Origin: a virus
IMG/VR virus record: IMGVR_UViG_3300023174_000056
Location: 64,001 to 128,000 of that record
DNA length: 64,000 nucleotides
Reading direction: 5' to 3' (one strand)
Each line of letters begins with the position of its first letter. Position 1 is the stretch's first letter. The notes under the pieces were generated by a model. The model saw only the letters and a program-made list of their open reading frames with translations. It ran no database searches and was not told the origin of the DNA. A program made the translations under genes and the position numbers. Of the stretch, positions 1,712 through 58,053 are shown piece by piece.

Positions 1712-1719
1712 TAAATAGT
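1712..1719 (-). promoter_or_regulatory. ACTATTTA motif, putative late promoter
   Basis: Recurrent motif, here upstream of the tape measure gene. Confidence 0.65.
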
Positions 1720-3413: not shown

Positions 3414-3421
3414 TAAATAGT
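3414..3421 (-). promoter_or_regulatory. ACTATTTA motif, putative late promoter
   Basis: Recurrent motif, here upstream of the tail tube gene. Confidence 0.65.
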
Positions 3422-8197: not shown

Positions 8198-8205
8198 TAA
8201 ATAGT
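8198..8205 (-). promoter_or_regulatory. ACTATTTA motif, putative late promoter
   Basis: Recurrent motif, here upstream of the neck genes. Confidence 0.65.
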
Positions 8206-8824: not shown

Positions 8825-10621
8825 TTAGCCTAATAGATCTTGTACAACAACTAAGCCGTACATGTCTGGGCGAACCATTGCCTTACCATAACGAGTCATA
8901 ACAGCCTTACGTGGTACGAAGGTGTTTGGATCGAAGATGGTTGGTGTTGATTGTAGTGGTACGTATGGAGCATAGACGTAGCCGCTTTCTAGGAAGCTAC
9001 CGCCCTTACGACCGACTAGGATTACGTTACGGTGGAAGTATGGGTGAACGATAACATCCCACTTCTTGTTTAGATCGCCAGTCTTTACTGCACCAACTGT
9101 GCCTTTTTCTGCATCGGCAGTTACTGATGCACGGAATCCGCTGGTGAATTCAAGAATGTTTGCAACTTCTGGTCCGCAAACTAGGAAGTTTGCGCCACCA
9201 CGTAATGTCTTACGGTGGATATTTGCTGAAACATCGTTGATGGTTTCAACTAGGGTTTCGTACCACATGCTTACGTTACCAGTGAAGTCTGGTGGAGCAG
9301 CGTAGTTAGCTAATACGTTACCAGCAATATCTAGGCCGGTATCACGGTTTACGAACTTACCTGGACGGCGTGACCAGTACTTAACGCCAGCAGTTTGTCC
9401 CTTGACTAGATCGTTTAGAATTTCTTGGTCAATTTCTAGACCAATTTGTTCTGACAACATTGAAGTTAATTCAACTTCAGCGTCTAGGTTGTGGTAAGCG
9501 TTTAGATCTTGGCCTAATTCTGGGGTCCAAGCAGCCTTTAGCTTACGGGTACGAGCAGTGATTGAGAATGAATCAACTTTTAGTTCAATTTCTGGAATTG
9601 CTGCTGAACCTTCAAATGTCCAAGGAGTTGCACCAACAATTGCACCTAATGCTGAGTCACCAACTGTTGACAAATTGTCTTTGATTGGGTATGATAGAAC
9701 TAAGTGGGTCTTGCCACTTAGGATAGCTGTTTTAGCAGCATCGCCACCTGAAGCTACAACGAATTGTAGAGCTGGTGTTCCGTCTAATGAACCGCTTTGA
9801 ACAACTTTAGCTAAACGACGAATTAGTTTTGTTCCAGTTCCAGCTAATGCAGCACCACCAGCGTAATCACCGGCTGCTGAACCTGCTGAAGCCGTTGTGG
9901 CAACTGCTGAAAGAGCGAATACGTCTTGAACAGCTAGTAAACCACCAAATGCTAGGTCGCTTATTCTTACTTCTAATACTGAGGCTGATACAACTGATGA
10001 GTCATTTAATAGATCTGCATCAAAGCGTACCAATTTCTTTTGTGCATCTGTTGCAGCTGCAACGCCGAAAGCTGCAAGTTCTGCTACGCTTCCTGTTGCA
10101 ATTGATTGGTAATAACGTGATGTGTTATAACCATTTGCCATGTTGTAGAAACCTTTTTCAGCATATTCTACACCATCTACACGTACACCACCAGTGATTT
10201 GAACGCCCAAACGATCACCAAAGAATGATGATGAAACTACGAAAGGACGGTTATCACCTTCAGCTGCGTTACCAATTGATGTACCACGGCGGAAGTCCAT
10301 GAAGAATACTAGACCGCTTGGTAGTGACATTGGTTGTACTGAAACTAGATCGTTAGCGATCAAGCCAGCAAATACACGACGGACGATTGGGAACGCAACA
10401 GCGGCAAAGCCTTGTACGTCACCACCAGCCATTGTGGTTGATTCTTTTAGTAGTTCTTTGGCTTGGTTCTCTAATAGAACTGCCATTGTTGATTTTTGGC
10501 GAGCTGATTTTAGACCTTCTAATAGTCCTGATTTTTCCCACTTGGAAACAACTGCTTCGGTTTCCTTTAACATATTGCGTTCAACGACGCCTTCTGTTAG
10601 TCTTTCTAATACGTTAGCCAT
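8825..10621 (-). CDS. Major capsid protein (gp23-like)
   Basis: KWEKSGLLEGL, LLENQA, VQPMSLPSGLVF, RKLKAAWTPE..QDL.AYH.LDAE.EL, YAPYVPL, PRKAVMTRYG. Confidence 0.98.
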   Translation of the reverse strand: MANVLERLTEGVVERNMLKETEAVVSKWEKSGLLEGLKSARQKSTMAVLLENQAKELLKESTTMAGGDVQGFAAVAFPIVRRVFAGLIANDLVSVQPMSLPSGLVFFMDFRRGTSIGNAAEGDNRPFVVSSSFFGDRLGVQITGGVRVDGVEYAEKGFYNMANGYNTSRYYQSIATGSVAELAAFGVAAATDAQKKLVRFDADLLNDSSVVSASVLEVRISDLAFGGLLAVQDVFALSAVATTASAGSAAGDYAGGAALAGTGTKLIRRLAKVVQSGSLDGTPALQFVVASGGDAAKTAILSGKTHLVLSYPIKDNLSTVGDSALGAIVGATPWTFEGSAAIPEIELKVDSFSITARTRKLKAAWTPELGQDLNAYHNLDAEVELTSMLSEQIGLEIDQEILNDLVKGQTAGVKYWSRRPGKFVNRDTGLDIAGNVLANYAAPPDFTGNVSMWYETLVETINDVSANIHRKTLRGGANFLVCGPEVANILEFTSGFRASVTADAEKGTVGAVKTGDLNKKWDVIVHPYFHRNVILVGRKGGSFLESGYVYAPYVPLQSTPTIFDPNTFVPRKAVMTRYGKAMVRPDMYGLVVVQDLLG

Positions 10622-10644: not shown

Positions 10645-12042
10645 TTAAGTTTTGTTTGTAATTCCTGCTAATTTCTTCATTCTTTCAGTAAATGACTCAT
10701 CGGCCACTTGCTGTTTGCGATTTAAGAATGGCGAATTACCACGGTTTAACGCTTCGCTTAGTGATTCTTTTGGCTTTTTCGTTGAAAAAGCCCCTTGCAC
10801 TGTGCTTTGAAGCGTGTTATAGATGGTTTTTGCCTCTAAAACGCTTGTAGATTTGGAAATGTTTTCGACAATTTGTTCTTTTTGTCGCTCATTCAACGAG
10901 GCATTTCCTAATACTTTGTTAGTATATAGTAATTTGGCGTTTGAAATGCTTAATTTTTCAATATTTTCTTTCAAAGTAGCAAAATTTTCTTCGAATTCTA
11001 CCATTTTTTCAATTAATTCTTCGTTTTCTTTTTTGCTTTCTTCTAATTTGGCCTTTAAGTCTGACATTGCGGCTTCTTGTGCTGCTCTTTCTTCTTCTGC
11101 TTTGGCATCTCTTGCAGCAGCTTTTTCAACATCACCGGCAAATTTACGTTCTATTGTTGTTGTACCCATATAACCACGTAATTGACTTTCTGGCTTTAAA
11201 TCTACTTCTAAACGCTCCGCTAATTCAGCTAATTCTTCTTCTGTTATTTGGATATCTTCTTCCATAGATGTAGCACTCATTCTTCCACCAGACAAATTTT
11301 TTCTAGCTGATTTAGAGGCTAAATCGTGGTAGATTGCATCTGCTTCCAAAGCTTTTTTACGTGCGACTTGGACTGCTGGGTCTTCCCCTTGTTCTTGCAA
11401 TTCATCTTCTAGTTCGAGTTCCAATTCTTCTTCGTATTCTTCCATTTCGCCTTCGTGGCTACCTAAATGAATTTTTATAGCTTCTTCTAATTCTTCTTCA
11501 TTAATAGTCCCACCATCTAAAGCATCTGTATGAGTTGCGTCTGATGGCCCTTCGCCACGCTCTTCTAATTCCTCTTCTTCCAATTCTTGTTCTTCATTCC
11601 AGCCTTCAGCTAAAGGCTGTGTTTCTAGGGATGGTTCCTCTTCTGTTGATTGTTCAAGAGGCTCTTCTTCTGGTGATCCTAAAATTGGGTTTTCAACACC
11701 CATCATTGATGATATTTGTTTTTTTAATTGATCAAAATTAATAGTTATAATTTGATCATCATCGCCATCTAAATATGATGCAGGAACTTTCTCAAATGCT
11801 TTTTCTTTATTATCGTCTGCCCCTGTCATCTGTGGGACATCAGCACTAAGTGAAGCATCTGGTGACATCATTGGGTCTGTTTGCATTGCAGCAGTAGACA
11901 TATCTTCTTGCTCTAATAATTTTTCAACAGATTGTTTAAATTCTTTTGAATATTTTTCAATTAAAGCAGATTCTGCATTTTTTATAGCAATTTCTCGAAG
12001 CGCTGCTGCATCTACTATTGCTTGTTCTAACAAATTTGACAT
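10645..12042 (-). CDS. Prohead core / scaffolding protein (gp22-like)
   Basis: Very acidic, coiled-coil, NAKLLYTNK, C-terminal RMKKLAGI. Immediately upstream of the MCP. Confidence 0.8.
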   Translation of the reverse strand: MSNLLEQAIVDAAALREIAIKNAESALIEKYSKEFKQSVEKLLEQEDMSTAAMQTDPMMSPDASLSADVPQMTGADDNKEKAFEKVPASYLDGDDDQIITINFDQLKKQISSMMGVENPILGSPEEEPLEQSTEEEPSLETQPLAEGWNEEQELEEEELEERGEGPSDATHTDALDGGTINEEELEEAIKIHLGSHEGEMEEYEEELELELEDELQEQGEDPAVQVARKKALEADAIYHDLASKSARKNLSGGRMSATSMEEDIQITEEELAELAERLEVDLKPESQLRGYMGTTTIERKFAGDVEKAAARDAKAEEERAAQEAAMSDLKAKLEESKKENEELIEKMVEFEENFATLKENIEKLSISNAKLLYTNKVLGNASLNERQKEQIVENISKSTSVLEAKTIYNTLQSTVQGAFSTKKPKESLSEALNRGNSPFLNRKQQVADESFTERMKKLAGITNKT

Positions 12043-12083: not shown

Positions 12084-12091
12084 TAAATAGT
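12084..12091 (-). promoter_or_regulatory. ACTATTTA motif, putative late promoter
   Basis: Upstream of the scaffold-MCP operon. Confidence 0.7.
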
Positions 12092-12114: not shown

Positions 12115-12423
12115 TTATTCTTTTTTTACAGTTTCTTGTGATTGCTTTGAATAAGCTTTTTTCTTTTTAGTTTTAACGGGACCGTCGCCGTTTAATTCAT
12201 CATTGTATTTTTTTGCATTTCTCTTATATCTTAGCTTTTTTTCTCTAGTGATAATTGATTTTTTTGTGAATCTTCTAGAAAAAGCACTATTATCAGCTAA
12301 AAATTGTAATAAAGAATCCTTACTACATTCTTTTAGAAATTTTTTGATAAGTTGTTCACTAGTCTCATCGGTTGGTCTTACGTGAGGAGGTAATTTTACC
12401 TCTAAGTTTACTGCTCTAGCCAT
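12115..12423 (-). CDS. Divergent ribosomal protein bS21-like
   Basis: Likely start MARAVNLEVK. The pattern V.V..ETSEQLIKKFLKECSKDSLL...F.K.S..REKK..KR aligns by eye with bS21. Basic protein. Confidence 0.6.
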   Translation of the reverse strand: MARAVNLEVKLPPHVRPTDETSEQLIKKFLKECSKDSLLQFLADNSAFSRRFTKKSIITREKKLRYKRNAKKYNDELNGDGPVKTKKKKAYSKQSQETVKKE

Positions 12424-12431
12424 GCTATACC

Positions 12432-12881
12432 CTATTCTTTCTTGCCTTTTCCATTTAAGGCAGTTGTAAAAGTTTTCCAAACTTCTTTATTTTGTCCCAA
12501 TAGCGCAGAAATATCTACGCCCTTTCCTTGAATACCTGGAACTACGGATGCTTCTGGGTTTAATGATTCTGCAATTTGTTCAGGATCATTTTCTGTAGGA
12601 GTTGATCCAGCAAATGGATCAAAACCACCCATTGAAATTTTTTCTAATAAATGCTTTTTTGCTTCTTGAATTTTATTTGGTTTATTCTCTGAAGTTTGTT
12701 TCATGAATTTAACTTCTTTTACCGCATAAGATTCTTCTTCTTTATTTTCTTTTACCATTTCACGTTGTCTTGTCTTAATAGACTCTTCAATAAGCTTATT
12801 TAAACCTTGTTCATAAAGAATCTCAGTTAAGCATTCTTTAATTAGCGGTTTAATTATTTTTTTTAAATTATTTTTATCCAT
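12432..12881 (-). CDS. Hypothetical protein with LKKIIKPLIKECL leader (candidate head protein)
   Basis: ORF with GAGG RBS and several I/L-x-E sites. Confidence 0.65.
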   Translation of the reverse strand: MDKNNLKKIIKPLIKECLTEILYEQGLNKLIEESIKTRQREMVKENKEEESYAVKEVKFMKQTSENKPNKIQEAKKHLLEKISMGGFDPFAGSTPTENDPEQIAESLNPEASVVPGIQGKGVDISALLGQNKEVWKTFTTALNGKGKKE

Positions 12882-17011: not shown

Positions 17012-17019
17012 TAAATAGT
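17012..17019 (-). promoter_or_regulatory. ACTATTTA motif, putative late promoter
   Basis: Upstream of the peptide and protease genes. Confidence 0.7.
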
Positions 17020-31098: not shown

Positions 31099-31106
31099 TA
31101 AATAGT
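31099..31106 (-). promoter_or_regulatory. ACTATTTA motif, putative late promoter
   Basis: Directly after the terminator at 31109-31141. Confidence 0.65.
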
Positions 31107-36740: not shown

Positions 36741-36748
36741 TAAATAGT
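36741..36748 (-). promoter_or_regulatory. ACTATTTA motif, putative late promoter
   Basis: Upstream of 35253..36719. Confidence 0.65.
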
Positions 36749-46962: not shown

Positions 46963-49900
46963 TTATTTTTTTATTTTTCTTGAAAATGACGCTTTTATGT
47001 TTTTTACTGCTGCTTGAGCTGTTGATGAATTTATTGTTTTTAATGCACTATTTTGTTGGTTTATTAATTGACTTGTAGTTGCGGTTACATTCAAATTAGT
47101 AGCATTTATATTTTGAATTTGCGCTTGTGCAACAGGGGTAAGCGAATTTACATTAATTGCTTGCAATGAAGAAGTCGGAGATCCGTTTAATGCTGACACC
47201 GTATTTATCTGTGGAACAAATTGAGTCTGAACAAGCGTTGGATTTGCTATCGTTGTCGTTAATTGCGTTGTTCCAATATTTGTATTATTTGTTTCTTGTG
47301 CATTTGTTACTACTGGTGTTGAAGTGTCTGCGTTGGAAGTTACTCTTCTTTGCGTTACAAATGTTTCTCCTGCCGTTTTTGATTTCAAATTAATATCTGT
47401 TTTACCATTTTTTAATTCTACTGTGGCATTAGCCATCTCAATAACAGAACAAAAATCGTAAGGCCAGTTATAAGAATATTCTGGTACTGCTTCTGATGAG
47501 GTAAACTTAAACTTAAAACGCTTTAGCGCCGACTCTTTTGAGTCTTCGACTAATTCATAGTAATTTACATTTGCTTTTTGTTTAATTTTGAAAACTTTAA
47601 ATTTAACATCTTTTGGCAATCTTTTACCGTGGAATAATTCATCCGAATTAAATGGATGTGAGATATTCTTGTTTTCTATATGTGATTCCATAGATTTTGA
47701 TGGCATGACACCTTGCCAGATATCAGATAAATCTGTATAATTACTGTCTTGCTGTAATTCTATATCAAATGGAATAACATACATTACGAAAGGATCAATA
47801 TTTTTGTTTCTTAACCAATCTAGATGAGGTGGCAAAACGAATCTTGTCATTTGTCTAACGGTATCTACTATGCTTGTATTTTTTAAAGAACTATTATTGT
47901 CAATAATTGTTTTTATTTCTTCAAAAGATATTTTTGATTCCTTACCAAAAGAAACCCCAAATGTTTCTTTTAGGATATCTCTATTGATCTTGAAATAATA
48001 TGGTCCTCTTCCTCTTTGATTTGGTTTTAAAATATTGTTTTCACCAAGAATCTCTGGTAATGTTTCTGCAAATTCTTGATTTATTTTTTTCTTTCCATCG
48101 ACATGGTTTTTATTATATGTGTATGGAATCAAAACCAAAGCTTCGCTGACAGTTTTTTCGGATCCTAGAACACCTAAAGTTGGCTTAACGTCAGTTTTAA
48201 ATCCACACATTTGAATTAAAGAACCAGTGTTAGGACCAGTTGGTGATTCTTGCAAATATAGTTTTATACCGCTGCCTTCTTGAACAGGGGAGCCATAAGT
48301 TGTCCAAATTCCTTTAAATAAGTTCTTATAAACGCCCTTAACAGTTCCTGGAATGCTTTTATCACCATCAATAAATTGTAGACCGATGTTATCTGTTAAA
48401 TCTGCATCATTAAAATTAATGCTTGGTGTTTCAAATTTTGTTTGAATTACCCATTTAAATTTTGGAACAAAAGATTTAGTGCCTTTATCTGCTTTTGAAG
48501 TTGCAACATCCACAGATAAATCTAGGTCTTCTGACTTTAATGTCAAATTGATGCTTGATGACAAGTTCATCATTGACTTATATGCTGGAGAATTTTTATA
48601 ATTATCCGCATACGAACTTGAAAAATCATTCAATAGGAAGTTTGATCTTTGCTTGAATAATGCTTCGGCCTCTGAGTTTAGGAATTCAATATTAATAGAA
48701 TCTTGAATTTCCTGTAGGCTGTAGGCTCTTGTTTTTGTATCGCTAGCTAAGAATGAAATTCTTGCAATTGCTTTTCCATAATAATATGGAGGTACATAAG
48801 GAGCATACGAAGGAGTATCTAGTAATTTAGAGTACAAATTATATGGGCCTTTTTGGTATAATAGGCTAGCAGAACCGGCGCTATCCCAGTATCTAACTGG
48901 AGGTCCGTATAATGAATCGGGTGAAGGAATCATAAATGTTCCTTCGCTATGCTTCGCTGGGTCGCTCTTTAGATTCTCGTAGTATGGATCTGTTATAAAT
49001 TCTTTGTAAGCTCCGTCTTTCTCAAGAACAACGTCCATGTAATAACGTGTGCCAGGAATTGCAGCAGCAAACTCGTTTTCTGGCTTGGAAGTTATTGATG
49101 TTAATTTACCTTTAAGGAAGAAATTAGGAATTTCTGCCAAGAAGTTATGCATAGCTAATTTATAGTTTGCATCCAAGAATGTAAATGACTTCAAAGAGCC
49201 AGTACCCATATTGTATGAAGGGTATGCAATATTATTAAAATCAGAACCTGTAATTGTATCTGTTGTATAATGTGTTGGGTTTAAGTAGTACAGATTATTT
49301 GCAGATACTTTTAAGTCATCTGGTATCTTTGTATCAAAATCAATTAAAGCTTCAAATGGTAATCTATAGTTTGGATTTAAATCAATGTAATTTGAAGCAG
49401 TGTAGTTTCTTTGAATATTATTAATGTAATCAAATAGATAATTTGTTGTTAGAGAACTTCCTGTGTTACCGTAAAATACGGGTGGCGTTCTTGAATCATA
49501 GCTAACACTTGATGTAATAAATACAGGGAAATCCACAGCAACTGATGATTTAATAGTATTTAAAAGAATACCTGGCGCAAATAGTGGCTGTAATAAAGCC
49601 AAAACTTGTTGATTTAGTGGCGTTCCATTTGAAAGTGCTGAGTAATATACCTCTTTTGGATTTTTACTTGAAACAAGAGTTCTTTTTAAAGGTAAAAATG
49701 AATTTATGAAATAGCTGCTTAATTGTTCTATTCTTTCACTTGGATAAAATCCTTTATATGGTAACAATTTTTTAATAGCAGAAATATTAATTGTTAATTT
49801 AAAATCATTATCTATGGGTAGACTTTCATCATACAAGAATGTTGTATCAAAGTTTTGCGAAATATTTGTAGAGCTGCTAAGATTATTAAATGAAGATTCC

Positions 49901-52900
49901 TGTAAAGCGCCTTGTAGGGTTAAATAATCGCTTGTTAAAATTGAATTAAAATTACCATTAACTTTTTTAACATAACTTTCCACAAAATTGCTAATTTTAT
50001 ACTCTGGTACTATAGAATACTTTTGAGAGTGTGGTTTAATGTCTTCTATAAATTTTGTATAAGAATCATAAAATGCGCCACGGCCTGCCTTTTGGTCTGT
50101 TTCATAAACATATCCTTGGTTTAAAACAAAGATTGAATTATTGCTAGAAGAATAAACCGTTGTGGTCAAATCTGTATTTGTTGCGTATGTGTTCTCGGCA
50201 ATTTTTAAATTTGAATTTGCATTTGGTGGTATAAAGTTATTAAAAATTAATTGAGGTTTTGGCATAACAATATCTACTGAAGCCGAATATGCTTCAAATT
50301 GATATTTAAAATCTTTTGTTTTAATAGTTGGACCCGATCTTGTGCCAGCAAAACGTCCACCAATAAAAATTTTATTTCCATCAGATACCAAGCTATAAAT
50401 TTCATCATCAGTTGTAAGATTAAAACCATTTCTAATACCGTTCGTACCAACTTGATTCCAATTTGTACCATCCCAGCAAGCTATATTATTTAAAATTGTG
50501 CCATCTGATGCAGAAGTGAAATTTCCAGCGGCATAAATTTTATTGTTTAAAGCTGTGAAAGACCAAATAAGCCCATTTAAAGTTTTAGAAATATCACTCC
50601 AACTTGTTCCATTCCATTTTTTAATAAATGGAGAAGTTACAGCATTACCAGCGTTACCAATAGTGTAGCCATCAGCACCATATACGTATAAACCATCAGA
50701 TGCGGACGCCATAGTAATTACTGTATTGTTTGGCCTTGATGGCGAAGACCCTCCGACTGAGTTCCACTTTACTCCATCCCACCTTGCAATGTTTGCAGTG
50801 TCGCTAATTCCCGTATCGGTAAATCCACCTCCGACATAAATGCCTTCGGAAGATGAAAGCATACAAAATACGCCACTTCCTAAACCGAACGATCCTGTTC
50901 CGAGAGAATTCCAACTTGTCCCATCCCATCTTGCAATACCATCAGCAGCTGCGATTCCCGCAGCATTAGTGAATTTGCCACCGACATAGATTCCTTCAGA
51001 CGCCGAAATTATAGATGAAATTTGATTATTGAAAGAATTCGTAGGTCCAACAATCTGGAAGGAACCACTACTTTTACATAAAACTAAGTTTTTGGCACCA
51101 GAGACACCGCCCCCATTAGTAAATTTACCACCAACATAAACACCAGCGGAGCTAGAGCATAAAGCAAATACAGAATCTCCAAACGTTGATGGAGTAATAT
51201 TTCCTATTGTAACCCAATCATTTTCTTTAGTCCATTTTTTTAGAAAACCTGTTAGGTTACCTATGCTGTTATAATCATTAACAGCCCTTAAACCTGCATA
51301 TACACCGTCAGAGCCGCTTACTAAGCATAAAATATCTCTATCTAAATTGTTTGTATAATCCTGGGTTGTTCCGTATAGAGAATATATATTTCCATTACCA
51401 TATTGGTTTGTATCTAGAATTGCTACATTTTTTATTGGATAGTAAATTTGTTCTAGATCAAAATATTTTTCTAGCAGTATGTCTTTGTTTGAAAGATAGC
51501 CAGAAGTATTTTTTTCATAAAAGATTTTCTGTAATTTATCTGGTACGAATTGTGTAACACTTCCACCAAAAATTATCCCAGACGAACCAGATGTAATTGT
51601 ATTTATTACAGAATAAGAATTTAATGGTAAATATATACTGCCACCAATCGTTCCCCAGCTTGCTCCATCCCATTTTGCTAATCCAATATTTTTATAAGAA
51701 GTATTACCAAAATTTCCAACTTTAGAAAATAACCCACCAATATATACACCATCGGAAGAAGAAAACAGAGAATTTATTCCAGAATTTACAAATGTTGCAG
51801 ATTTGTCTAGAGCATTGTAGGTAACTGTTGATAAAACAGAACCAAAACCTTTCCATTTTGATAAAATAGTATCCCATTTAGCAACGTTAGATACGCTATC
51901 GCTACCAGTTAAAGGAGAAGCTATAGAAAAACTACCGCCGACATAAATACCGTCAGAGCCGGATGAGATTGAAGCAACACGGTCATAATAAGAATTGCCT
52001 CCAACTCCATCACCAATAGTATTTCCAAACGCCGTCCAATTAGTGCCATTCCACACTGCTATATTTTTTGCATTTAGGTTGTTTGAAGCTGCAATAGCAA
52101 AAGCCCCTCCAACATAAAGACCATATGAAGAACTAGCCAAAGAAAATACTGTCGCAGAACTATACAATGAAGACCAGTCAGGGTCTGCGAGTGGTGGCGA
52201 GCCAGGAGAACCAGTGCCAACATTAGTCCAAGTTGAGCCATTCCATAGTGCTATTGTATCGGCATTAGAGACACCGCCAGCGTCTGTAAATACTCCTCCA
52301 ACATAAAGACCTTGAGAAGAGCTGACCATAGAATAAACAATAGTTTTAGAACCATTTGGAGAAAGTGGGGCGCTCCCAGCTGAAGACCCTGTTCCTAAAC
52401 TAACCCAATCTGTTCCATCCCATTTTATAATTGCATTTTTTGATGTAGTAGAATCCAAATTACTAAACTTGCCACCAACGTATAAACCGTCAGCGCCAGA
52501 CACTATTGAATAAACTACGGCATCAGTGACGTTTATTCCATTTTTGAATGTAGTAACTCTTTGTCCATCCCATTTAAGAATACAATTTGCTTTAGAATTA
52601 CCGCCAGCATTTGTAAAATCGCCGCCTATATAAATACCATCAGAAGTAGACAAAGAAGTATTTATATTACTTGCGAATATACCAGTATAAGCTCCAAAGT
52701 TTGTAACAATATTTGTATCCTTATTAAAAGAAAAAATATTATTTACTGGTAACTTAATATTATCAATATTATTTTGTAAAGAATAAGATTCACTATACTG
52801 CAAGTCTTGAGCAAAAATAGAATTTTTTAGTTTATTATTAGGATCAAAAATAAAATTATCGTAAGACCCATAGGAAGAAAATAATTTTGAGCCAATAGTA

Positions 52901-55900
52901 TTATATGAACTTGTAGCAAATCCAAACATATCAACAGTCGATGAAGGTCTTTCACGGTCTACGGCAGAATCCCTCCAGAATGTTTTTGTTTTTACTATGC
53001 TGTCTGTACTACCATTATCTTCATAATTTGGCTTTGTTCTAATGTCGCCTAAACCAATTTTATCTTTTCTTGGGAAAACAAGCTCAGAATAAGCAATACC
53101 AGCCGCCACAGGTTCGTCTATATCTTGTACTTTTGAGGTCAATAGATTATAAATCTTCTTATAGGAAGTTTTATTTCTATCTGGCTGCACTGGTGCAATT
53201 TCATTTTTTAATAATTGATTGGCAATTGTGTCTAAAACGTTTGAATATTCTGTTCTTAAAATTGTGTATACATCATTAATTTTTGTTAATTCTGTATTTA
53301 ATGTTACTCCAAATGTAATTGGTAAATTCCACTCTACAGGTGGTTCAATATAAGGCTTTGTTATGGATTTTACTTCTAATTTTGAAGGCTTTGTTAAGGG
53401 AGGAGACACAGAATCTGCGGCATAGGTTCTTGTTTCCGTTACAAAGTTTGAAGTATTTTTTTGAATAATAAACTTATTATTTTTAAATAATAAATTGGCA
53501 AGTTTATTATTATCTTTTTGTCTTATTTGCTTCCAAGAAGTATATCCAAAAGGTCCATCTTTTTTTAATAAATATTTATGTAAACTTCCGTTCTCATTAA
53601 AAGAAATAGTTGAAGTATCTTGGTTGACAGATGTTGTAATATTTGAATTATTTAAACCAACAAAGTCAATAACTTCGCCAGATTCTGTAGATGCAGATAA
53701 AACAGCAAGTGTACCAATATCAGTATTTGGATATATCGATGAGTAGGGACCACTTGAAGTTATTAAGTTTGTAGCAGACGCTGATATCCAAGCATAACCA
53801 TAATCACTTCTTGGAATTTGATGCGATACGAAGCCGTTATCATACTCATTGCTATTTGCTGTTTTTAAATGATTTTTATTAATCTTATGAAACGATGGGT
53901 TGTTTGAATCTATTGAAGCCGTTTCTCTCATCCAATCGTTTAAAGCTTTTCTTACTAATGGATTTCTATAATTAACTGTATTGTAAACCGAAAATGTTTC
54001 TGACTCTCTATCTAAAGCACCTCTTGATAGCGACTCAGGACCACCTGGGGCTGAGAACCGATTGACCATTATTCCTTCGTATTTCTTACGGGTTGGTAAT
54101 GGATAATCATAAGCGCCACTAATAAATGCGCTTGCAGTAGCAGAAGATAGAACACCTTCTACATCGACTAAATGTTTGTTATTGATTTCTCTACCAGCTG
54201 CTTGAACTATATTATATTGTTTAGAATAGTTTGCTCTTGGTTGGTTAAATAGGGAAGTTCTAGCAGATCCAGAGTCTGCAAACAAAGGTCTTAGTTCTAC
54301 TGAATTTGTTAAACTATTAAGCACATTTACAACTGCAAATGTTTCGATGCCATCAACCAAAGAGTAAGGCTTATCAGCTGCTAAATCATATAATCTTGCC
54401 AAGCGTCTATCATAATATGCAGTTTTTTCATAAACTGTGCTTGTGGCAGCATTATAAGATTTGTATTTTTTCTTATTTGTTTCATTTACAATCGAATCTA
54501 ATAATTTTTGCTTATCAGCATCTGCATCGCCTGATGAAACTATTACTGGCGAGTTAATTCGTTCGGCTCTTTCTTTCAGCCATAACGCACTATCTTCCTG
54601 CGAGAAGCTTGTTAAATCTTCTGGTGCATGGCCTTTCTTCCAATTATATTTTAACTCTTTAATGCCTTTTGCTTGTGCATAATCTACCGTAGTCTTTTTT
54701 ACTTGTGGAAGCTTATAATCGTATTTTGGTCTTTCCAATACGTGGCTTTCAATCATATTTCTAATATTTTGTGAAAATTCAGAACCAGCTGGTGCTAATT
54801 GATATAACATTTCTCCAATAGCTGAATCTATCCATTTATAGAATTCAATATATTTCTCTACAGATGGTTCATTTTCTACTTTTTCAAAAAACTTTCTTCT
54901 TAGGGCGTTTAAGTCTCTATACTCTTGGCGATATTTATTTATTGGATCGCCAATAAGATTATTAAAATCAACAATACCAGCAAACATATTTAACATTTCT
55001 TCTGATATTGTTTGGTACATACTTTTTTCAAAAGCCCAAAACAAACTAACTGGTTTAGTATCTTTTGTAAAAGCGTAGTCCGAATCGCCATAGATATTAA
55101 TTGTGTCTGATGTGTACAGATTCTCTGGGACTGTTTGCTTTGAGGCCAAAGTATAGTGTTTTTTAACTATATCTTTTGAATTTGCCAGAGTTTCTGATGC
55201 TTTGGCTGCATAAGTTTTTTCTACGTTGTAAGAAAATAAGCTGTCAAGACCACTTACAGCCCCTTTGGTATCCTTGACTAAAACTTCACCATTGCTATCG
55301 CTTGATGTTACTTCATCAAAATCCCAGTTAAAAGCTAAAAGATTTATTCTTTCGATCTTTTCATCTAAATTTTCATATGGTTTTGCAATAGGATTTTTTA
55401 CACCAAAATTAGCAGAATCTTTCGCATGTTCTTGAATTTCTTCGTTAGATAGATAATCATACCAGAATCTGGCGTTTGACACTAAGATATCTGTATAATT
55501 CAACACAGAGCCAGTAAAATTGTTTTTTCTAGCGCCTACATAAAATTTCTTAAAATCACCATGAATGTTTTGAACCTGCTCAAGAGTCAATGCAGAGCTT
55601 GTTACTGTGAATTCATTTTTTATATTACCTTCTACTGTGTTTACGCCATAAAATTCTAGATAATAATCTTTCCCAACGGGTAGGGTATTAAAAGCATTAA
55701 TATCATAATTTAACTTGTCTAAGTTATCATATGGAGTTTTTAGTCTAACCGCAAAATTCCATTTTTCTCCCTCGTAAATATCAGAAAAATATTGGCTTCT
55801 TAGATTATTATCAGCGGTAGCAATACAATTAAATTTAAAATATCCGCCCCTATCGTCCTTTTTATTTTTAACTAAAAATGTTTCAAAGTTATAGTGCGAA

Positions 55901-58053
55901 GTGACGATATTAGCTTCATCGGTTAAGTTATTTATAGAATAACCACCAAACAAAGATATATTTGTTTCTTCTGGCACTGAGTAATTTACGTCTGACGTTT
56001 CTAGTTTTTTTGGAAAGAAAATTTCTGTTTCAAACGTTAATGGGATTAAATAATAAGGTACTTTTGCAGTGTCTAAATTTATTGTAGGTAATAGAGACGA
56101 ATAAGAAGTTGTTGAATCGGAGGTTTCATTTGTGTTAAAAATATTTGTTCCGTAGCTATCTGGGGTTGAGAAGTTAAGAACTTTCTTTTTTTCTACGATA
56201 CTCTTCTTGTTGTTTTCAATAGTAAATTCTGTATTATTTGCATAGATATTTAATTTAATCAACTCATCATCTATACCAAATGATCTTATAAGATTTCTAA
56301 AGGATTTTTCTGTACCTTTTGTTTTATAAATATATGTTAAGTTATTTAAGATATTTTTATAAATTAAATTCTTTAAATCTGTTAATTTTTCTTCAAATAG
56401 TCTTTGTTCATCTCTAGATTTTAGATCTTCTATAATTTTAGAATCAACAAAAATATCAGGAGCTAGAAACCCGTTAGATTCTAGAATTGAATTAATAAAT
56501 GGAGCTGGCTTTCTATCTTGCTCGTAATATTCTCCAAAACCAAATGTAGGTAATTCTTTTATTTGAAGATAAATTTTATCAAAATAACTTGCAATTATTT
56601 GAGTAACTTTTTTTAGTTCTTCTGTCGCTACTTCTTCGTCTTCTGTGGTTATCCATTCTGGGAGGCTTCGGTAAATTGAATTACCATTCCGCAAATCCCA
56701 TTCTTGCCCTTTTTCTTTTAATTCTGAACTTTTATTTATAACCAAATAATGGTCTGGGTATAAGATTGGGTCTTTGACTTCTTGGCTTTCAAATAGACCG
56801 CTATCATCAATTGCTGACGATGTTGAGCGGACGCCAGCCGTATAATTTACGATAGTTCCGTTAGAAACACGCCCAGAATAATCTAATATTATAGAATCTC
56901 TCTGGTCTATAGACTCTTCGTTTAAAACGCCTTCATTAAATCTATAGTAAACTCCAAGATCTGTATTTGATAAATCTGTATTTGAACCACCATAAACTCT
57001 ATCGAATAAATAACGTTTTATATCTTTTTGAGTTTTTTCTGTTTTCCAAAATCTAAATTCATCAAAACTTCCAGGTGCTGCACCTAAATTATAATTGCCT
57101 GCGCTATAGAATCTATAAGATCCTAAGTTTGCTAAGAGATTTTTATTATCAAATGATAATGCAGATGCGTACTCGCCGTCTGATTTCCAAACTAATTCGC
57201 CGTCAATATATAATTTTGCAATTAATGTTCCATCATTTTCTTCTCTATTAACAAATGAGAATGCGTAATGATGCCAAGAGTTTAAATCAGTTAAATTATA
57301 ATCTATAGAGACATTTTGTAGAGCGCCATACCCTGAGAGAGGGTCTGTATTACCTTTATAAGTTATAGTAAACTTTTTTTGCGATGCTAAAAGACCTATT
57401 GACAATCTAGCATAATTTGAAGAATTGGTGTCCTCGATGCCGTTCCATAAATCAAATAAACCAAAAGAAGAAGAAAGGACATTTTGTGAAAGCCCTTCTT
57501 CCAACTTAAACCAAAATTCTACAGTATTTCCTTTTTGTGAACTTAAACCAAAATTGGCTTCTTGATTATTATTTACGTTATAGATGTTTCCATCTTTATA
57601 CAAATTTCCTTTTGCATTTGGGCCACTGTATGCCTTAACATATTGTGCGTTATTGCTTACTAAAACTTTAGTATCACCACTTCCTACTGAAGTGTATGCG
57701 GAATCATACGTATCAGAATTTAAAGTAATAAAGCCGGTTGTTTTTGGATATTCACTATCAAAAACATACTTTTCCAAGTAAGTTAATTTATTTCGCCAGT
57801 CAGTTATTTCTGACTCGGAACCATCATATGGATAAGAGCTATAGATATGTTGAATCGCTGAAGAATAATATTCATCAGCTAAACCAAATCTTGCAAAAGA
57901 TTTTGGATCAGAAAAATCTAAATTTGGTATAAATTCTTGGTTCTCTTCATTCTTTTTTTGAATGAAAGTTCTAGATTCTACTTCATTGTAAATTTCTTCT
58001 GGTTTTTCATTTGCTACTTGCTTGGTATCTTTAAATAAGTCTTTTATGGACAT
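46963..58053 (-). CDS. Giant baseplate wedge protein (gp7-like) with a LamG domain and beta-propeller repeats
   Basis: TVEFWFK/WHHYAF/LYIDG/FDEFRFW LamG motifs; KTKGTEKS.RNLIRSFGI wedge motif; 14 G.YVGG.F...WDG repeats. Follows gp6. Confidence 0.75.
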   Translation of the reverse strand: MSIKDLFKDTKQVANEKPEEIYNEVESRTFIQKKNEENQEFIPNLDFSDPKSFARFGLADEYYSSAIQHIYSSYPYDGSESEITDWRNKLTYLEKYVFDSEYPKTTGFITLNSDTYDSAYTSVGSGDTKVLVSNNAQYVKAYSGPNAKGNLYKDGNIYNVNNNQEANFGLSSQKGNTVEFWFKLEEGLSQNVLSSSFGLFDLWNGIEDTNSSNYARLSIGLLASQKKFTITYKGNTDPLSGYGALQNVSIDYNLTDLNSWHHYAFSFVNREENDGTLIAKLYIDGELVWKSDGEYASALSFDNKNLLANLGSYRFYSAGNYNLGAAPGSFDEFRFWKTEKTQKDIKRYLFDRVYGGSNTDLSNTDLGVYYRFNEGVLNEESIDQRDSIILDYSGRVSNGTIVNYTAGVRSTSSAIDDSGLFESQEVKDPILYPDHYLVINKSSELKEKGQEWDLRNGNSIYRSLPEWITTEDEEVATEELKKVTQIIASYFDKIYLQIKELPTFGFGEYYEQDRKPAPFINSILESNGFLAPDIFVDSKIIEDLKSRDEQRLFEEKLTDLKNLIYKNILNNLTYIYKTKGTEKSFRNLIRSFGIDDELIKLNIYANNTEFTIENNKKSIVEKKKVLNFSTPDSYGTNIFNTNETSDSTTSYSSLLPTINLDTAKVPYYLIPLTFETEIFFPKKLETSDVNYSVPEETNISLFGGYSINNLTDEANIVTSHYNFETFLVKNKKDDRGGYFKFNCIATADNNLRSQYFSDIYEGEKWNFAVRLKTPYDNLDKLNYDINAFNTLPVGKDYYLEFYGVNTVEGNIKNEFTVTSSALTLEQVQNIHGDFKKFYVGARKNNFTGSVLNYTDILVSNARFWYDYLSNEEIQEHAKDSANFGVKNPIAKPYENLDEKIERINLLAFNWDFDEVTSSDSNGEVLVKDTKGAVSGLDSLFSYNVEKTYAAKASETLANSKDIVKKHYTLASKQTVPENLYTSDTINIYGDSDYAFTKDTKPVSLFWAFEKSMYQTISEEMLNMFAGIVDFNNLIGDPINKYRQEYRDLNALRRKFFEKVENEPSVEKYIEFYKWIDSAIGEMLYQLAPAGSEFSQNIRNMIESHVLERPKYDYKLPQVKKTTVDYAQAKGIKELKYNWKKGHAPEDLTSFSQEDSALWLKERAERINSPVIVSSGDADADKQKLLDSIVNETNKKKYKSYNAATSTVYEKTAYYDRRLARLYDLAADKPYSLVDGIETFAVVNVLNSLTNSVELRPLFADSGSARTSLFNQPRANYSKQYNIVQAAGREINNKHLVDVEGVLSSATASAFISGAYDYPLPTRKKYEGIMVNRFSAPGGPESLSRGALDRESETFSVYNTVNYRNPLVRKALNDWMRETASIDSNNPSFHKINKNHLKTANSNEYDNGFVSHQIPRSDYGYAWISASATNLITSSGPYSSIYPNTDIGTLAVLSASTESGEVIDFVGLNNSNITTSVNQDTSTISFNENGSLHKYLLKKDGPFGYTSWKQIRQKDNNKLANLLFKNNKFIIQKNTSNFVTETRTYAADSVSPPLTKPSKLEVKSITKPYIEPPVEWNLPITFGVTLNTELTKINDVYTILRTEYSNVLDTIANQLLKNEIAPVQPDRNKTSYKKIYNLLTSKVQDIDEPVAAGIAYSELVFPRKDKIGLGDIRTKPNYEDNGSTDSIVKTKTFWRDSAVDRERPSSTVDMFGFATSSYNTIGSKLFSSYGSYDNFIFDPNNKLKNSIFAQDLQYSESYSLQNNIDNIKLPVNNIFSFNKDTNIVTNFGAYTGIFASNINTSLSTSDGIYIGGDFTNAGGNSKANCILKWDGQRVTTFKNGINVTDAVVYSIVSGADGLYVGGKFSNLDSTTSKNAIIKWDGTDWVSLGTGSSAGSAPLSPNGSKTIVYSMVSSSQGLYVGGVFTDAGGVSNADTIALWNGSTWTNVGTGSPGSPPLADPDWSSLYSSATVFSLASSSYGLYVGGAFAIAASNNLNAKNIAVWNGTNWTAFGNTIGDGVGGNSYYDRVASISSGSDGIYVGGSFSIASPLTGSDSVSNVAKWDTILSKWKGFGSVLSTVTYNALDKSATFVNSGINSLFSSSDGVYIGGLFSKVGNFGNTSYKNIGLAKWDGASWGTIGGSIYLPLNSYSVINTITSGSSGIIFGGSVTQFVPDKLQKIFYEKNTSGYLSNKDILLEKYFDLEQIYYPIKNVAILDTNQYGNGNIYSLYGTTQDYTNNLDRDILCLVSGSDGVYAGLRAVNDYNSIGNLTGFLKKWTKENDWVTIGNITPSTFGDSVFALCSSSAGVYVGGKFTNGGGVSGAKNLVLCKSSGSFQIVGPTNSFNNQISSIISASEGIYVGGKFTNAAGIAAADGIARWDGTSWNSLGTGSFGLGSGVFCMLSSSEGIYVGGGFTDTGISDTANIARWDGVKWNSVGGSSPSRPNNTVITMASASDGLYVYGADGYTIGNAGNAVTSPFIKKWNGTSWSDISKTLNGLIWSFTALNNKIYAAGNFTSASDGTILNNIACWDGTNWNQVGTNGIRNGFNLTTDDEIYSLVSDGNKIFIGGRFAGTRSGPTIKTKDFKYQFEAYSASVDIVMPKPQLIFNNFIPPNANSNLKIAENTYATNTDLTTTVYSSSNNSIFVLNQGYVYETDQKAGRGAFYDSYTKFIEDIKPHSQKYSIVPEYKISNFVESYVKKVNGNFNSILTSDYLTLQGALQESSFNNLSSSTNISQNFDTTFLYDESLPIDNDFKLTINISAIKKLLPYKGFYPSERIEQLSSYFINSFLPLKRTLVSSKNPKEVYYSALSNGTPLNQQVLALLQPLFAPGILLNTIKSSVAVDFPVFITSSVSYDSRTPPVFYGNTGSSLTTNYLFDYINNIQRNYTASNYIDLNPNYRLPFEALIDFDTKIPDDLKVSANNLYYLNPTHYTTDTITGSDFNNIAYPSYNMGTGSLKSFTFLDANYKLAMHNFLAEIPNFFLKGKLTSITSKPENEFAAAIPGTRYYMDVVLEKDGAYKEFITDPYYENLKSDPAKHSEGTFMIPSPDSLYGPPVRYWDSAGSASLLYQKGPYNLYSKLLDTPSYAPYVPPYYYGKAIARISFLASDTKTRAYSLQEIQDSINIEFLNSEAEALFKQRSNFLLNDFSSSYADNYKNSPAYKSMMNLSSSINLTLKSEDLDLSVDVATSKADKGTKSFVPKFKWVIQTKFETPSINFNDADLTDNIGLQFIDGDKSIPGTVKGVYKNLFKGIWTTYGSPVQEGSGIKLYLQESPTGPNTGSLIQMCGFKTDVKPTLGVLGSEKTVSEALVLIPYTYNKNHVDGKKKINQEFAETLPEILGENNILKPNQRGRGPYYFKINRDILKETFGVSFGKESKISFEEIKTIIDNNSSLKNTSIVDTVRQMTRFVLPPHLDWLRNKNIDPFVMYVIPFDIELQQDSNYTDLSDIWQGVMPSKSMESHIENKNISHPFNSDELFHGKRLPKDVKFKVFKIKQKANVNYYELVEDSKESALKRFKFKFTSSEAVPEYSYNWPYDFCSVIEMANATVELKNGKTDINLKSKTAGETFVTQRRVTSNADTSTPVVTNAQETNNTNIGTTQLTTTIANPTLVQTQFVPQINTVSALNGSPTSSLQAINVNSLTPVAQAQIQNINATNLNVTATTSQLINQQNSALKTINSSTAQAAVKNIKASFSRKIKK
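50340..52660 (-). repeat. 14 beta-propeller blade repeats (2 x 7) within the giant protein
   Basis: Repeated S-x-S-[DE]G[ILV]YVGG.FT.AGG....IA.WDGT.W units in two groups of seven. Confidence 0.8.

What the first reader, a model, noticed from the sequence alone, without database searches (positions are those of the whole stretch)
12115..12423. Divergent ribosomal protein bS21 in the head operon of a phage that uses Shine-Dalgarno sequences
Seen: NLEVK...ETSEQLIKKFLKECSKDSLLQ...RRFTKKSIITREKK..KRNAKK follows the bS21 pattern (beta strand, E.....L++F++.C.K..+L, aromatic-x-K-x-S, basic helix). It has short insertions, lacks the usual YEKP and carries a long Lys-rich tail. Established: phage bS21 genes are known beside structural genes and are expressed late, notably in phages of Bacteroidota, where bS21 helps sequester the anti-SD. 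Here the late genes have clear AGGAG/GAGG SDs. Inference: this copy may act differently, for example favouring SD-led phage mRNAs, and the host is probably not Bacteroidota.
Basis: partly seen in the sequence, partly recalled or inferred. Interest (0 to 1): 0.7.

Follow-up and report, generated by a model that had tools for sequence, protein, structure and literature searches.

The report
Divergent phage ribosomal protein bS21 gene
A small basic gene inside the head-assembly gene cluster of a large uncultured T4-like phage is a real, conserved but strongly diverged relative of bacterial ribosomal protein bS21; phage bS21 genes next to capsid genes are already known, so this is a new sequence variant of a known kind, not a new system.

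Summary
Window 12115-12423 (minus strand) encodes a 102-residue basic protein. It belongs to a family of at least 179 metagenomic proteins.

Single-sequence searches (Pfam, NCBIfam, PHROGs, PDB sequences) do not see bS21. Family-level evidence does:
- hhalign of 123 family members against 20 diverse bS21 gives probability 84%, P 7.5e-6 and 51 collinear columns. Column-shuffled controls against a 16-sequence bS21 set, where the real score was 30.5, scored 10.1 +/- 2.0.
- PF01165 is the family most often hit by members (13 of 37).
- Distant members restore the Y-E-K-P-S motif and reach E 6e-5.
- The three nearest ESM Atlas clusters are viral bS21 clusters.

The gene always lies between the prohead protease and the scaffold/capsid genes. 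Canonical bS21 occupies that slot in Microcystis phage Mel-JY01 and in uncultured phage LR756508. Core dN/dS is about 0.2.

The phage uses Shine-Dalgarno sites: 52% of ORFs, against 4% in its closest cultured relative, a Flavobacterium phage. This supports a host outside Bacteroidota, but the host was not identified.

Ribosome binding, late timing and any special effect on SD-led mRNAs are inferred, not shown.

Head-module phage bS21 is already published, and this scan has noted similar genes in other genomes. Interest is moderate.

The parts
12115..12423 (-). CDS of the 102-aa divergent bS21-like protein (P0001). The core, about residues 5-80, is conserved. Residues 81-102 are a Lys-rich variable tail.
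   Evidence: ORF. (family of >=179 proteins). (hhalign against bS21 with shuffle controls). (dN/dS 0.20 core, 0.73 tail).
12424..12431 (-). 8-nt spacer between the stop of the upstream 149-aa ORF and the ATG. Only a weak G-rich (GGG) SD-like element spans the stop codon of the upstream ORF and the first bases of the spacer, so translation is probably coupled to the upstream gene (inferred).
   Evidence: Sequence read.
12432..12881 (-). 149-aa ORF of no known family. It is the invariable upstream neighbour of the bS21-like gene.
   Evidence: Adjacent in all 19 related IMG/VR loci. No Pfam or PHROG hit. No detectable homology to the upstream neighbours of canonical phage bS21.
12084..12091 (-). 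ACTATTTA motif, a candidate late promoter, in the spacer between the bS21-like gene and the scaffold gene, 49 nt before the scaffold ATG.
   Evidence: 16 copies on the coding strand against 5 on the other. Copies lie 24-49 nt upstream of seven structural-region ORFs. Promoter function is inferred.
10645..12042 (-). Acidic 465-aa protein, the probable scaffold, with a CAGGAG SD.
   Evidence: Position between protease and capsid gene, composition, conserved in relatives. No family hit.
8825..10621 (-). T4-type major capsid protein.
   Evidence: phrog_138, E 9e-68. 47-51% identity to the capsid proteins of Flavobacterium phage immuto, Microcystis phage Mel-JY01 and uncultured phage LR756508.
16252..16860 (-). 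T4-type prohead protease, first long gene of the presumed late unit that ends with the bS21-like gene.
   Evidence: phrog_207, E 4e-58. ACTATTTA motif at 17012-17019 upstream.

Best explanation
The gene encodes a true but strongly diverged homologue of bacterial ribosomal protein bS21. It is fixed in the prohead protease-scaffold-capsid cassette of a clade of uncultured T4-like phages with genomes of about 170-190 kb.

The most likely mechanism follows that proposed for other phage bS21 (Mizuno 2019; Chen 2022). The gene is transcribed late, as the last gene of the protease transcription unit. The small basic protein binds the host 30S platform at the bS21 site, next to uS11 and the 3' end of 16S rRNA. 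There it replaces or supplements host bS21, keeping initiation efficient or biased towards phage mRNAs while virion proteins are mass-produced.

Shown here: homology at family level, conserved position, purifying selection, SD use by the phage.

Inferred: late timing, ribosome binding, any effect on translation.
For: 1. Profile-profile comparison. 123 family members against 16, then 20, diverse bS21 gave hhalign probability 70% then 84%, P 4e-5 then 7.5e-6, and score 30.5 then 34.7. The 51 aligned columns cover about bS21 positions 8-58. 150 column shuffles of the 16-sequence set gave 10.1 +/- 2.0 (max 15.3).

2. Register and motifs agree. F-x-K-x-C-x-K (F29, C33 and K35, invariant in the family) matches F-K-R-x-C-x-K of bS21. 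F-x-K-x-S matches Y-E-K-P-S. K-R-N-A-K-K matches K-R-H-A-K-K.

3. Transitive links. phmmer of P0001 against 1.84 billion representatives finds P0090 at E 5.5e-7. P0090 hits PF01165 at E 6e-5 (23.1 bits; cut-off 27) and carries Y-E-K-P-S. It also lies just after a T4-type prohead protease.

4. PF01165 is the family most often hit by members (13 of 37, best E 0.0014). The family HMM scores all 20 bS21 at P<=0.02.

5. ESM Atlas. The top three feature neighbours are viral clusters with PF01165 on 61-97% of members (scores 0.88-0.89, 195-203 shared features). The Atlas's own model matches a viral bS21 cluster at TM 0.53/0.65 over 72 residues.

6. Position. All 19 related loci keep protease..149-aa ORF-bS21-like-scaffold-capsid. 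Canonical bS21 (PF01165, 45 and 40 bits) lies on the same strand between protease and capsid gene in Mel-JY01, and 2.1 kb upstream of the capsid gene, on the same strand, in LR756508. These two phages are among the four records with the closest capsid proteins. Chen 2022 (PMC9723584) reports prohead protease within ten genes of bS21 in 310 of 900 phages.

7. Purifying selection: dN/dS 0.20 in the core.

8. Predicted pairing with E. coli uS11 gave weak support only: ipSAE 0.35 against a best control of 0.00. The mark was reached by 58 of 80 solved complexes and 2 of 110 mismatches. At 0.60 or under it was reached by only 7 of those 80 and by both mismatches. The runs share at least 57% of contacts and the partner pLDDT is at least 52. 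The pass may come from memory of solved ribosomes, so it shows likeness, not binding.

9. Mizuno 2019 (PMC6375957) showed that a phage bS21 enters E. coli 70S ribosomes.
Against: P0001 alone is not recognisable. It has no Pfam, NCBIfam or PHROG hit, no six-frame PF01165 match in its own genome at E<=10, and scores 3.7 bits against my bS21 HMM.

The family profile does not hit bS21 chains among PDB sequences.

No family member examined reaches Pfam's gathering score.

My AF2 model (pLDDT 76) gave no convincing bS21 match in PDB, BFVD or Atlas searches. This is inconclusive for a small extended helical protein.

The hallmark Y-E-K-P hinge is altered and there are two conserved insertions, so binding geometry could differ.

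The family is no closer to the head-module bS21 of Mel-JY01 than to bacterial bS21, so orthology of the slot is not proven.

Confidence: 0.65

Rival explanations
1. It is a bS21-derived protein that now serves in the head. It would be a basic prohead-core or internal protein, assembled with the scaffold, packaged, possibly bound to DNA through its Lys-rich tail, and perhaps injected with the genome. Any action on ribosomes would then come at the start of the next infection or not at all.
For: The gene is strictly fixed between prohead protease and scaffold, co-oriented and apparently co-transcribed with assembly genes. It is always paired with a 149-aa ORF of unknown function. Canonical motifs are lost and it scores below the Pfam threshold. 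The Lys-rich tail is weakly constrained in sequence but keeps its composition. Chen 2022 (PMC9723584, Discussion) raises encapsidation of phage bS21 as a possibility.
Against: The bS21 core, including the F/C/K helix and the basic C-terminal helix, is under purifying selection. Fully canonical bS21 occupies the same slot in other phages, so the location does not by itself indicate a structural role. The N-terminus does not consistently carry the T4-type (L/I)-x-E cleavage or targeting motif: here P3 is Asn, and some relatives lack the Glu. No structural-protein family matches.
Confidence: 0.18
2. It is a bS21-like RNA-binding protein that works off the ribosome, for example as a translational or mRNA-stability regulator of the neighbouring late transcripts.
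For: It is a small, very basic helical protein (pI 10.0, 27 K+R of 102). Its altered hinge and insertions may be incompatible with the platform pocket. This phage carries other translation-related genes: 10 tRNAs, a tmRNA, ClpP and a SpoU methylase.
Against: There is no direct evidence. Known bS21 homologues, including a phage one, act as ribosome components (Mizuno 2019, PMC6375957). The predicted pairing with uS11, though weak, is above its controls.
Confidence: 0.08
3. There is no homology. A small Lys/Arg-rich helical phage protein resembles bS21 by composition and chance.
For: The single sequence is undetectable by every HMM library. The structure searches show no bS21. HHsuite probability is only 70-84% with small alignments.
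Against: Column-shuffled and reversed controls lie about 10 standard deviations below the real score. Shuffled family sequences score a mean of -2.8 bits against 4.8 for real ones. Independent lines agree: Pfam hits on relatives, language-model neighbours, and the same genomic slot as canonical bS21.
Confidence: 0.07

Closest known systems
Phage-encoded bS21 in the head-gene region of large freshwater phages (Chen et al. 2022, PMC9723584) and of 900 published bS21 phages analysed there
   Same: A small bS21-type gene lies within a few genes of the prohead protease and major capsid protein. A late role in translation is presumed. The phages are aquatic and uncultured, with myovirus-type genomes.
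   Different: [quoted passage not shown] This gene is co-oriented with the head genes and invisible to Pfam. It has two conserved insertions and an altered hinge motif. Its phage is about 170-190 kb and uses SD sites on about half of its genes.
RpsU/bS21 of Microcystis phage Mel-JY01 (PP395634.1) and of uncultured phage LR756508.1
   Same: Same slot and strand, between T4-type prohead protease and scaffold/capsid genes. Capsid proteins are 47-51% identical to this phage's.
   Different: Those proteins are canonical (PF01165, 45 and 40 bits) and carry the K-P-S hinge. Pairwise similarity to this family is not detectable. The flanking small ORFs are not detectably homologous.
bS21 of Pelagibacter phage HTVC008M (Mizuno et al. 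2019, PMC6375957), Mosig, Melnitz, PA5oct
   Same: Phage-encoded bS21 in large T4-like or jumbo phages of SD-using Proteobacteria. The HTVC008M protein was shown to enter E. coli 70S ribosomes.
   Different: Those genes lie among early, replication or translation genes such as clamp loader, RegA, ClpX and a tRNA, not in the head cassette. Their sequences are canonical.
Bacterial bS21 (RpsU; PF01165), e.g. E. coli b3065
   Same: Collinear similarity over about residues 7-63 of the 71-residue E. coli protein. It includes the F-K-R-x-C-x-K helix, the aromatic-x-K-x-S hinge and the basic K-R-x-A-K-K helix. The protein is small and basic.
   Different: It is 102 aa against 71 aa. It has a Pro-rich insert after the N-terminal strand, a 4-residue insert before the hinge, Pro replaced by Lys in the hinge, and a Lys-rich tail. 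It scores below the Pfam gathering threshold.

Membership tests
Ribosomal protein bS21 (Pfam PF01165 Ribosomal_S21) | Sequence scores above the Pfam gathering threshold (27 bits) | tested here: not met
   P0001 has no hit at E<=10. There is no six-frame hit in its own genome. The best relatives reach 23.1 bits (P0090, E 6e-5) and E 0.0014.
Ribosomal protein bS21 (Pfam PF01165 Ribosomal_S21) | Homology to bS21 detectable by profile-profile comparison, above composition controls | tested here: met
   hhalign probability 84%, P 7.5e-6, score 34.7, 51 columns. Shuffled-column controls gave 10.1 +/- 2.0, max 15.3.
Ribosomal protein bS21 (Pfam PF01165 Ribosomal_S21) | Conserved motifs: F-K-R-x-C/x-x-K-x-G helix, R-R-x-x-Y-E-K-P-S hinge, basic C-terminal helix | tested here: inconclusive
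   F, C and K of the first motif are invariant in the family. The hinge is F-x-K-K-S here, with Pro lost, but Y-E-K-P-S or Y-x-K-P-S appears in distant family members. The basic K-R-N-A-K-K helix aligns with K-R-H-A-K-K.
Ribosomal protein bS21 (Pfam PF01165 Ribosomal_S21) | Fold: short N-terminal strand, two short helices, long basic C-terminal helix | tested here: inconclusive
   The AF2 model (pLDDT 76) has helices 19-33, 35-44, 47-50 and 55-78, in the expected order, but no strand. PDB, BFVD and Atlas searches with it gave no clear match. The Atlas's own model matches a viral bS21 cluster at TM 0.53/0.65.
Ribosomal protein bS21 (Pfam PF01165 Ribosomal_S21) | Binds the 30S platform next to uS11 and the 3' end of 16S rRNA | tested here: inconclusive
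   Predicted pairing with E. coli uS11 gave weak support: 0.35 against a best control of 0.00. See the counts in the For line. The pass may reflect memory of solved ribosomes. rRNA binding cannot be tested with these tools.
Head-module phage bS21 (Chen et al. 2022) | bS21 gene within a few genes of prohead protease and major capsid protein, conserved across related phages | tested here: met
   The gene is 5 genes after the protease and 2 before the capsid gene. The order is kept in 19 of 19 related loci and in the contigs carrying P0090.
Head-module phage bS21 (Chen et al. 2022) | Late co-expression with structural genes | not testable with these tools
   Only inferred, from co-orientation and a candidate late-promoter motif (ACTATTTA) ahead of the protease unit and the scaffold gene.
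T4-type prohead core/internal proteins | N-terminal capsid-targeting sequence ending in an (L/I)-x-E protease site, or similarity to gp67/gp68/IP families | tested here: not met
   There is no PHROG or Pfam match. The N-terminal x-L-E has Asn or His at P3 in most members, and the Glu is not invariant.

The most novel reading that the evidence does not exclude
The conserved changes of this subfamily are the Pro-rich insert beside the helix that overlies the anti-SD, the hinge without Pro, and the Lys tail. They might alter how the 3' tail of 16S rRNA is presented. Ribosomes carrying the phage protein would then pair more readily with the strong SD sites that about half of the phage genes carry. 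Alternatively, the protein could supply a bS21-like subunit to a host whose ribosomes lack bS21. Either way it would be a phage-made, SD-tuning ribosome variant and not a simple replacement part.
Probability: 0.1. Interest if true: 0.8.

Novelty: new variant of a known kind. Interest (0 to 1): 0.4.

Why it matters
Surveys of virus-encoded ribosomal proteins rely on PF01165-type HMM hits. This family has at least 179 proteins in public metagenomes and no precomputed Pfam hit on any of the 120 members listed, so such surveys would mostly miss it. bS21-type genes in phage head cassettes are therefore probably more widespread than counted, and they extend to SD-using hosts.

The family also gives a natural series. 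In the same genomic slot it runs from near-canonical members (Y-E-K-P-S) to strongly altered ones (F-x-K-K-S plus insertions). That series could be used to ask which parts of bS21 matter for platform binding and for handling the anti-SD.

If it is simply a diverged replacement subunit, it adds a subfamily to a known phenomenon.

Tried and rejected
- Direct HMM and sequence searches with P0001 (Pfam, NCBIfam, PHROGs, PDB sequences) gave nothing meaningful.
- Family profiles against PDB sequences gave only chance-level hits (uL29m, designed repeats) and no bS21.
- tblastn of P0001 and P0090 against 50,697 phage records found no relative among cultured phages.
- Foldseek on PDB and BFVD, VIA-align wide, and an Atlas shape search with my AF2 model gave no convincing match. 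The best Z was 3.6. The Atlas first row was a viral bS21 cluster, but at TM 0.30 over 35 residues. I treat this as inconclusive, not as evidence against.
- The A2 profile against the single Mel-JY01 bS21 sequence was not significant.
- The 149-aa upstream ORF shows no detectable homology to the upstream neighbours of canonical head-module bS21, so slot orthology rests on the protease and capsid anchors only.
- Host identification failed:
  - The phage PurB has at most 44% identity to homologues scattered over many phyla.
  - Gene sharing with immuto and Mel-JY01 is equally low, about 35 ORFs at 34% identity.
  - The one-piece tmRNA tag ending in YALAA is not diagnostic.
  - No relatives are drawn for virus records.
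- I looked for an early/late difference in SD use that would fit 'favouring SD-led late mRNAs' and found none.
- I rejected the longer TTG-started 121-aa reading (12480), because it overlaps the upstream ORF and the relatives start at the ATG.

Full report
**The gene.** On the minus strand an ATG at 12423 opens a 102-codon frame that ends at 12115. The longer TTG-started reading (12480) overlaps the preceding 149-aa ORF, which stops at 12432. Relatives do not support it, since they all begin M-[AGS]-[RK] at the same point. The protein is basic: pI 10.0, with 27 Lys+Arg of 102 residues. The window is bases 64001-128000 of an IMG/VR virus record of 168,144 bp, estimated 92% complete. That record has 34.6% G+C, and 190 of 195 long ORFs lie on one strand.

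**Direct searches fail.** P0001 has no hit in Pfam at E<=10, none in PHROGs, and only chance-level rows in NCBIfam and PDB sequences. A six-frame PF01165 scan of the whole phage record finds nothing. An ad hoc bS21 HMM gives P0001 3.7 bits, inside the range of shuffled sequences, whose 99th percentile is 4.6.

**The family.**
- A word-indexed search found 85 close relatives (54-81% identity), all metagenomic, several on contigs of 187-195 kb.
- An exhaustive phmmer search of 1.84 billion representatives added eight more distant clusters, at E 5e-22 to 2e-6.
- A profile search raised the count to 179 proteins. None of the 120 listed carries a precomputed Pfam domain.
- One member is called 'ribosomal protein S21' by JGI. 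Two are called 'lysyl-tRNA synthetase', surely an artefact of the Lys run.
- Invariant positions in the close family include L7, V9, L11, P12, P17, L25, I26, F29, C33, S34, K35, S37, R50, K54 and R60.
- The last 20 or so residues are Lys-rich but variable.

**Is it bS21?** Seven lines of evidence bear on this.
1. Scanning 37 members one by one, PF01165 is the family hit most often (13 members, best E 0.0014). The next family is hit by 6.
2. The distant members carry the canonical hinge: Y-E-K-P-S in P0090, Y-x-K-P-S in P0092 and P0093, F-E-K-P-S in P0088. P0090 matches PF01165 at E 6e-5 (23.1 bits, just under the 27-bit cut-off) and P0092 at E 0.0098. P0001 finds P0090 at E 5.5e-7 in a 1.84-billion-protein library, so this is a sound transitive chain.
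3. I assembled diverse bS21 sequences from phage and bacterial records and ran hhalign.
   - The 123-member family alignment against 16 bS21 gave probability 70%, P 4.1e-5, score 30.5.
   - Against 20 bS21 it gave probability 84%, P 7.5e-6, score 34.7.
   - Both alignments cover 51 collinear columns, bS21 positions about 8-58.
   - 150 column-shuffled versions of the bS21 alignment scored 10.1 +/- 2.0 (max 15.3), and the reversed alignment 10.5. The signal is therefore not composition.
4. The family HMM scores all 20 bS21 at per-sequence P<=0.02, best 1.4e-6.
5. The register makes biochemical sense. F29/C33/K35 fall on F/C/K of the F-K-R-x-C-x-K helix. F52-x-K54-x-S56 falls on Y-E-K-P-S. K-R-N-A-K-K falls on K-R-H-A-K-K of E. 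coli bS21.
6. In the ESM Atlas the three nearest clusters by language-model features are viral clusters with PF01165 on 61%, 92% and 97% of members (scores 0.88-0.89; 195-203 shared features). The Atlas's own model of this protein matches a viral bS21 cluster at TM 0.53/0.65 over 72 residues. By the tool's own calibration these are leads, but they point the same way.
7. A predicted pairing of residues 1-82 with E. coli uS11, the platform neighbour of bS21, gave weak support.
   - ipSAE was 0.35 against a best control of 0.00.
   - The mark was reached by 58 of 80 solved complexes and 2 of 110 mismatches. At 0.60 or under it was reached by only 7 of those 80 and by both mismatches.
   - The runs agree in at least 57% of contacts, and the partner pLDDT is at least 52.
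   - Because bS21-uS11 is solved in many ribosomes, the pass may come from memory. It then shows likeness, not binding.

**Structure.** The AF2 model built on the family alignment has mean pLDDT 76 and helices 19-33, 35-44, 47-50 and 55-78. This is the order expected for bS21, without the N-terminal strand. Searches of PDB (Foldseek and VIA-align wide), BFVD and the Atlas with this model gave nothing convincing. For a small, extended, rRNA-bound helical protein this is inconclusive.

**Context.**
- The gene sits in a T4-type head cassette. The order is prohead protease (phrog_207, E 4e-58), ORFs of 132, 527, 445 and 149 aa, the bS21-like gene, an acidic 465-aa scaffold-like protein, then the major capsid protein (phrog_138, E 9e-68).
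- All 19 related IMG/VR loci keep 149-aa ORF / bS21-like / scaffold / capsid. This includes four distant loci at 39-47% identity, in which other genes have moved.
- The near-canonical P0090 also lies shortly after a Peptidase_S77 prohead protease in a terminase-portal-protease cassette.
- The capsid protein's best matches among phage records are Flavobacterium phage immuto (47%), uncultured LR756508 (51%), Microcystis phage Mel-JY01 (47.5%) and Rhodothermus phage RM378.
- Mel-JY01 has an annotated RpsU (PF01165, 45 bits) in the same slot and orientation: protease, 154-aa ORF, bS21, 388-aa ORF, capsid.
- LR756508 has a PF01165 match (40 bits) 2.1 kb upstream of its capsid gene on the same strand.
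- Immuto and RM378 have none.
- The flanking small ORFs of these phages are not detectably homologous to the 149-aa ORF here. The family is also no nearer to Mel-JY01's bS21 than to bacterial ones. Common descent of the slot is therefore plausible but unproven.

**Selection and transcription.** Among 12 orthologues the median dN/dS is 0.20 for alignment columns 1-80 and 0.73 for the tail. dS is about 1.3, near saturation, so the values are rough. An ACTATTTA motif occurs 16 times on the coding strand against 5 on the other. It lies 24-49 nt upstream of seven structural-region ORFs, including the scaffold gene (motif at 12084-12091), and another copy precedes the protease unit (17012-17019). 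I read it as a candidate late promoter. The bS21-like gene would then be the last gene of the protease unit. This is inference. The gene's own ribosome-binding site is weak, with only a G run 8-10 nt upstream and an 8-nt gap after the preceding stop, so translational coupling is likely.

**SD use and host.**
- 52% of 195 ORFs have GGAG, GAGG or AGGA at -20..-4, against 6.6% upstream of internal ATGs.
- The same script gives 4% (control 20%) for Flavobacterium phage immuto and 31% for Mel-JY01.
- The phage therefore uses SD-led initiation, unlike a bona fide Bacteroidota phage of the same capsid lineage.
- SD use is even along the genome (45-77% in ten of eleven 16-kb bins; the remaining bin holds only 4 ORFs), so it does not single out late genes.
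- The host was not identified. The phage PurB has at most 44% identity to homologues spread over many phyla. Gene sharing with immuto and Mel-JY01 is equally low.
- The record also carries 10 tRNAs, a one-piece tmRNA, ClpP and a SpoU methylase.
- From memory only, contig names of relatives (prefix B570J) suggest Lake Mendota freshwater samples.

**What is known.** Mizuno et al. 2019 (PMC6375957) found that bS21 is by far the commonest virus-encoded ribosomal protein, occurs mostly in aquatic lytic phages, is under purifying selection, and that the HTVC008M protein enters E. coli 70S ribosomes. Al-Shayeb et al. 2020 (PMC7162821) noted phage bS21 with basic N-terminal extensions and proposed substitution into host ribosomes. 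Chen et al. 2022 (PMC9723584) described bS21 inside the head-gene region of 293-331 kb freshwater phages of Bacteroidetes, on the reverse strand and co-expressed with structural genes. They found prohead protease within ten genes of bS21 in 310 of 900 published bS21 phages, with hosts in Proteobacteria, Bacteroidetes and Firmicutes. The kind of thing is therefore known, including in SD-using hosts. This scan has also noted similar head-operon bS21 genes on other genomes. One earlier follow-up, on a different phage, reached the same type of verdict.

**Verdict.** Homology to bS21 is well supported at family level; I put it near 0.9. The functional reading, a late-made subunit that enters the host 30S platform, is the best explanation at about 0.65. 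The main rival is an exapted or packaged head protein. The suggestion of a special SD-favouring activity is untested and gets no support from the distribution of SD sites. The novelty is a Pfam-invisible, insertion-bearing subfamily of a known class, with moderate interest.

Noticed in passing
window 1712-1719, 3414-3421, 8198-8205, 12084-12091, 17012-17019, 31099-31106, 36741-36748 (minus strand): The ACTATTTA motif is enriched on the coding strand (16 against 5 genome-wide). It lies 24-49 nt upstream of structural-region ORFs, so it is a candidate late-promoter element of this phage clade, analogous to T4's TATAAATA.
   Followed up: partly
own genome outside the window: G000 339-2638, 152894-152967 and 154576-154865: Ten tRNA genes and a one-piece tmRNA whose 14-residue tag ends in YALAA. 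Nearby are ClpP (153219-153830), a SpoU-type methylase (150939-151493) and an adenylosuccinate lyase (148762-150042). The phage invests heavily in translation and quality control.
   Followed up: partly
window 12432-12881 (minus strand): A 149-aa ORF of no known family is the constant upstream partner of the bS21-like gene in all 19 related loci, while other cassette genes move. It may work with the bS21-like protein.
   Followed up: partly
L051-L058 (Flavobacterium phage immuto, MW353175.1): SD-core tetramers are depleted upstream of start codons (4%) relative to coding sequence (20%). This is a clean Bacteroidota-type signature and a useful negative control for SD-based host inference.
   Followed up: yes
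L154 3985-5064: A GIY-YIG homing-endonuclease-like gene is inserted between the prohead protease and the bS21-type gene in the phage that carries the near-canonical family member P0090.
   Followed up: no
window 46963-58053 (minus strand): A giant 3696-aa ORF lies in the structural region. It was not examined here.
   Followed up: no
P0040, P0082 (family members): JGI names these bS21-like proteins 'lysyl-tRNA synthetase class II'. This is almost certainly an annotation artefact of the Lys-rich tail.
   Followed up: no
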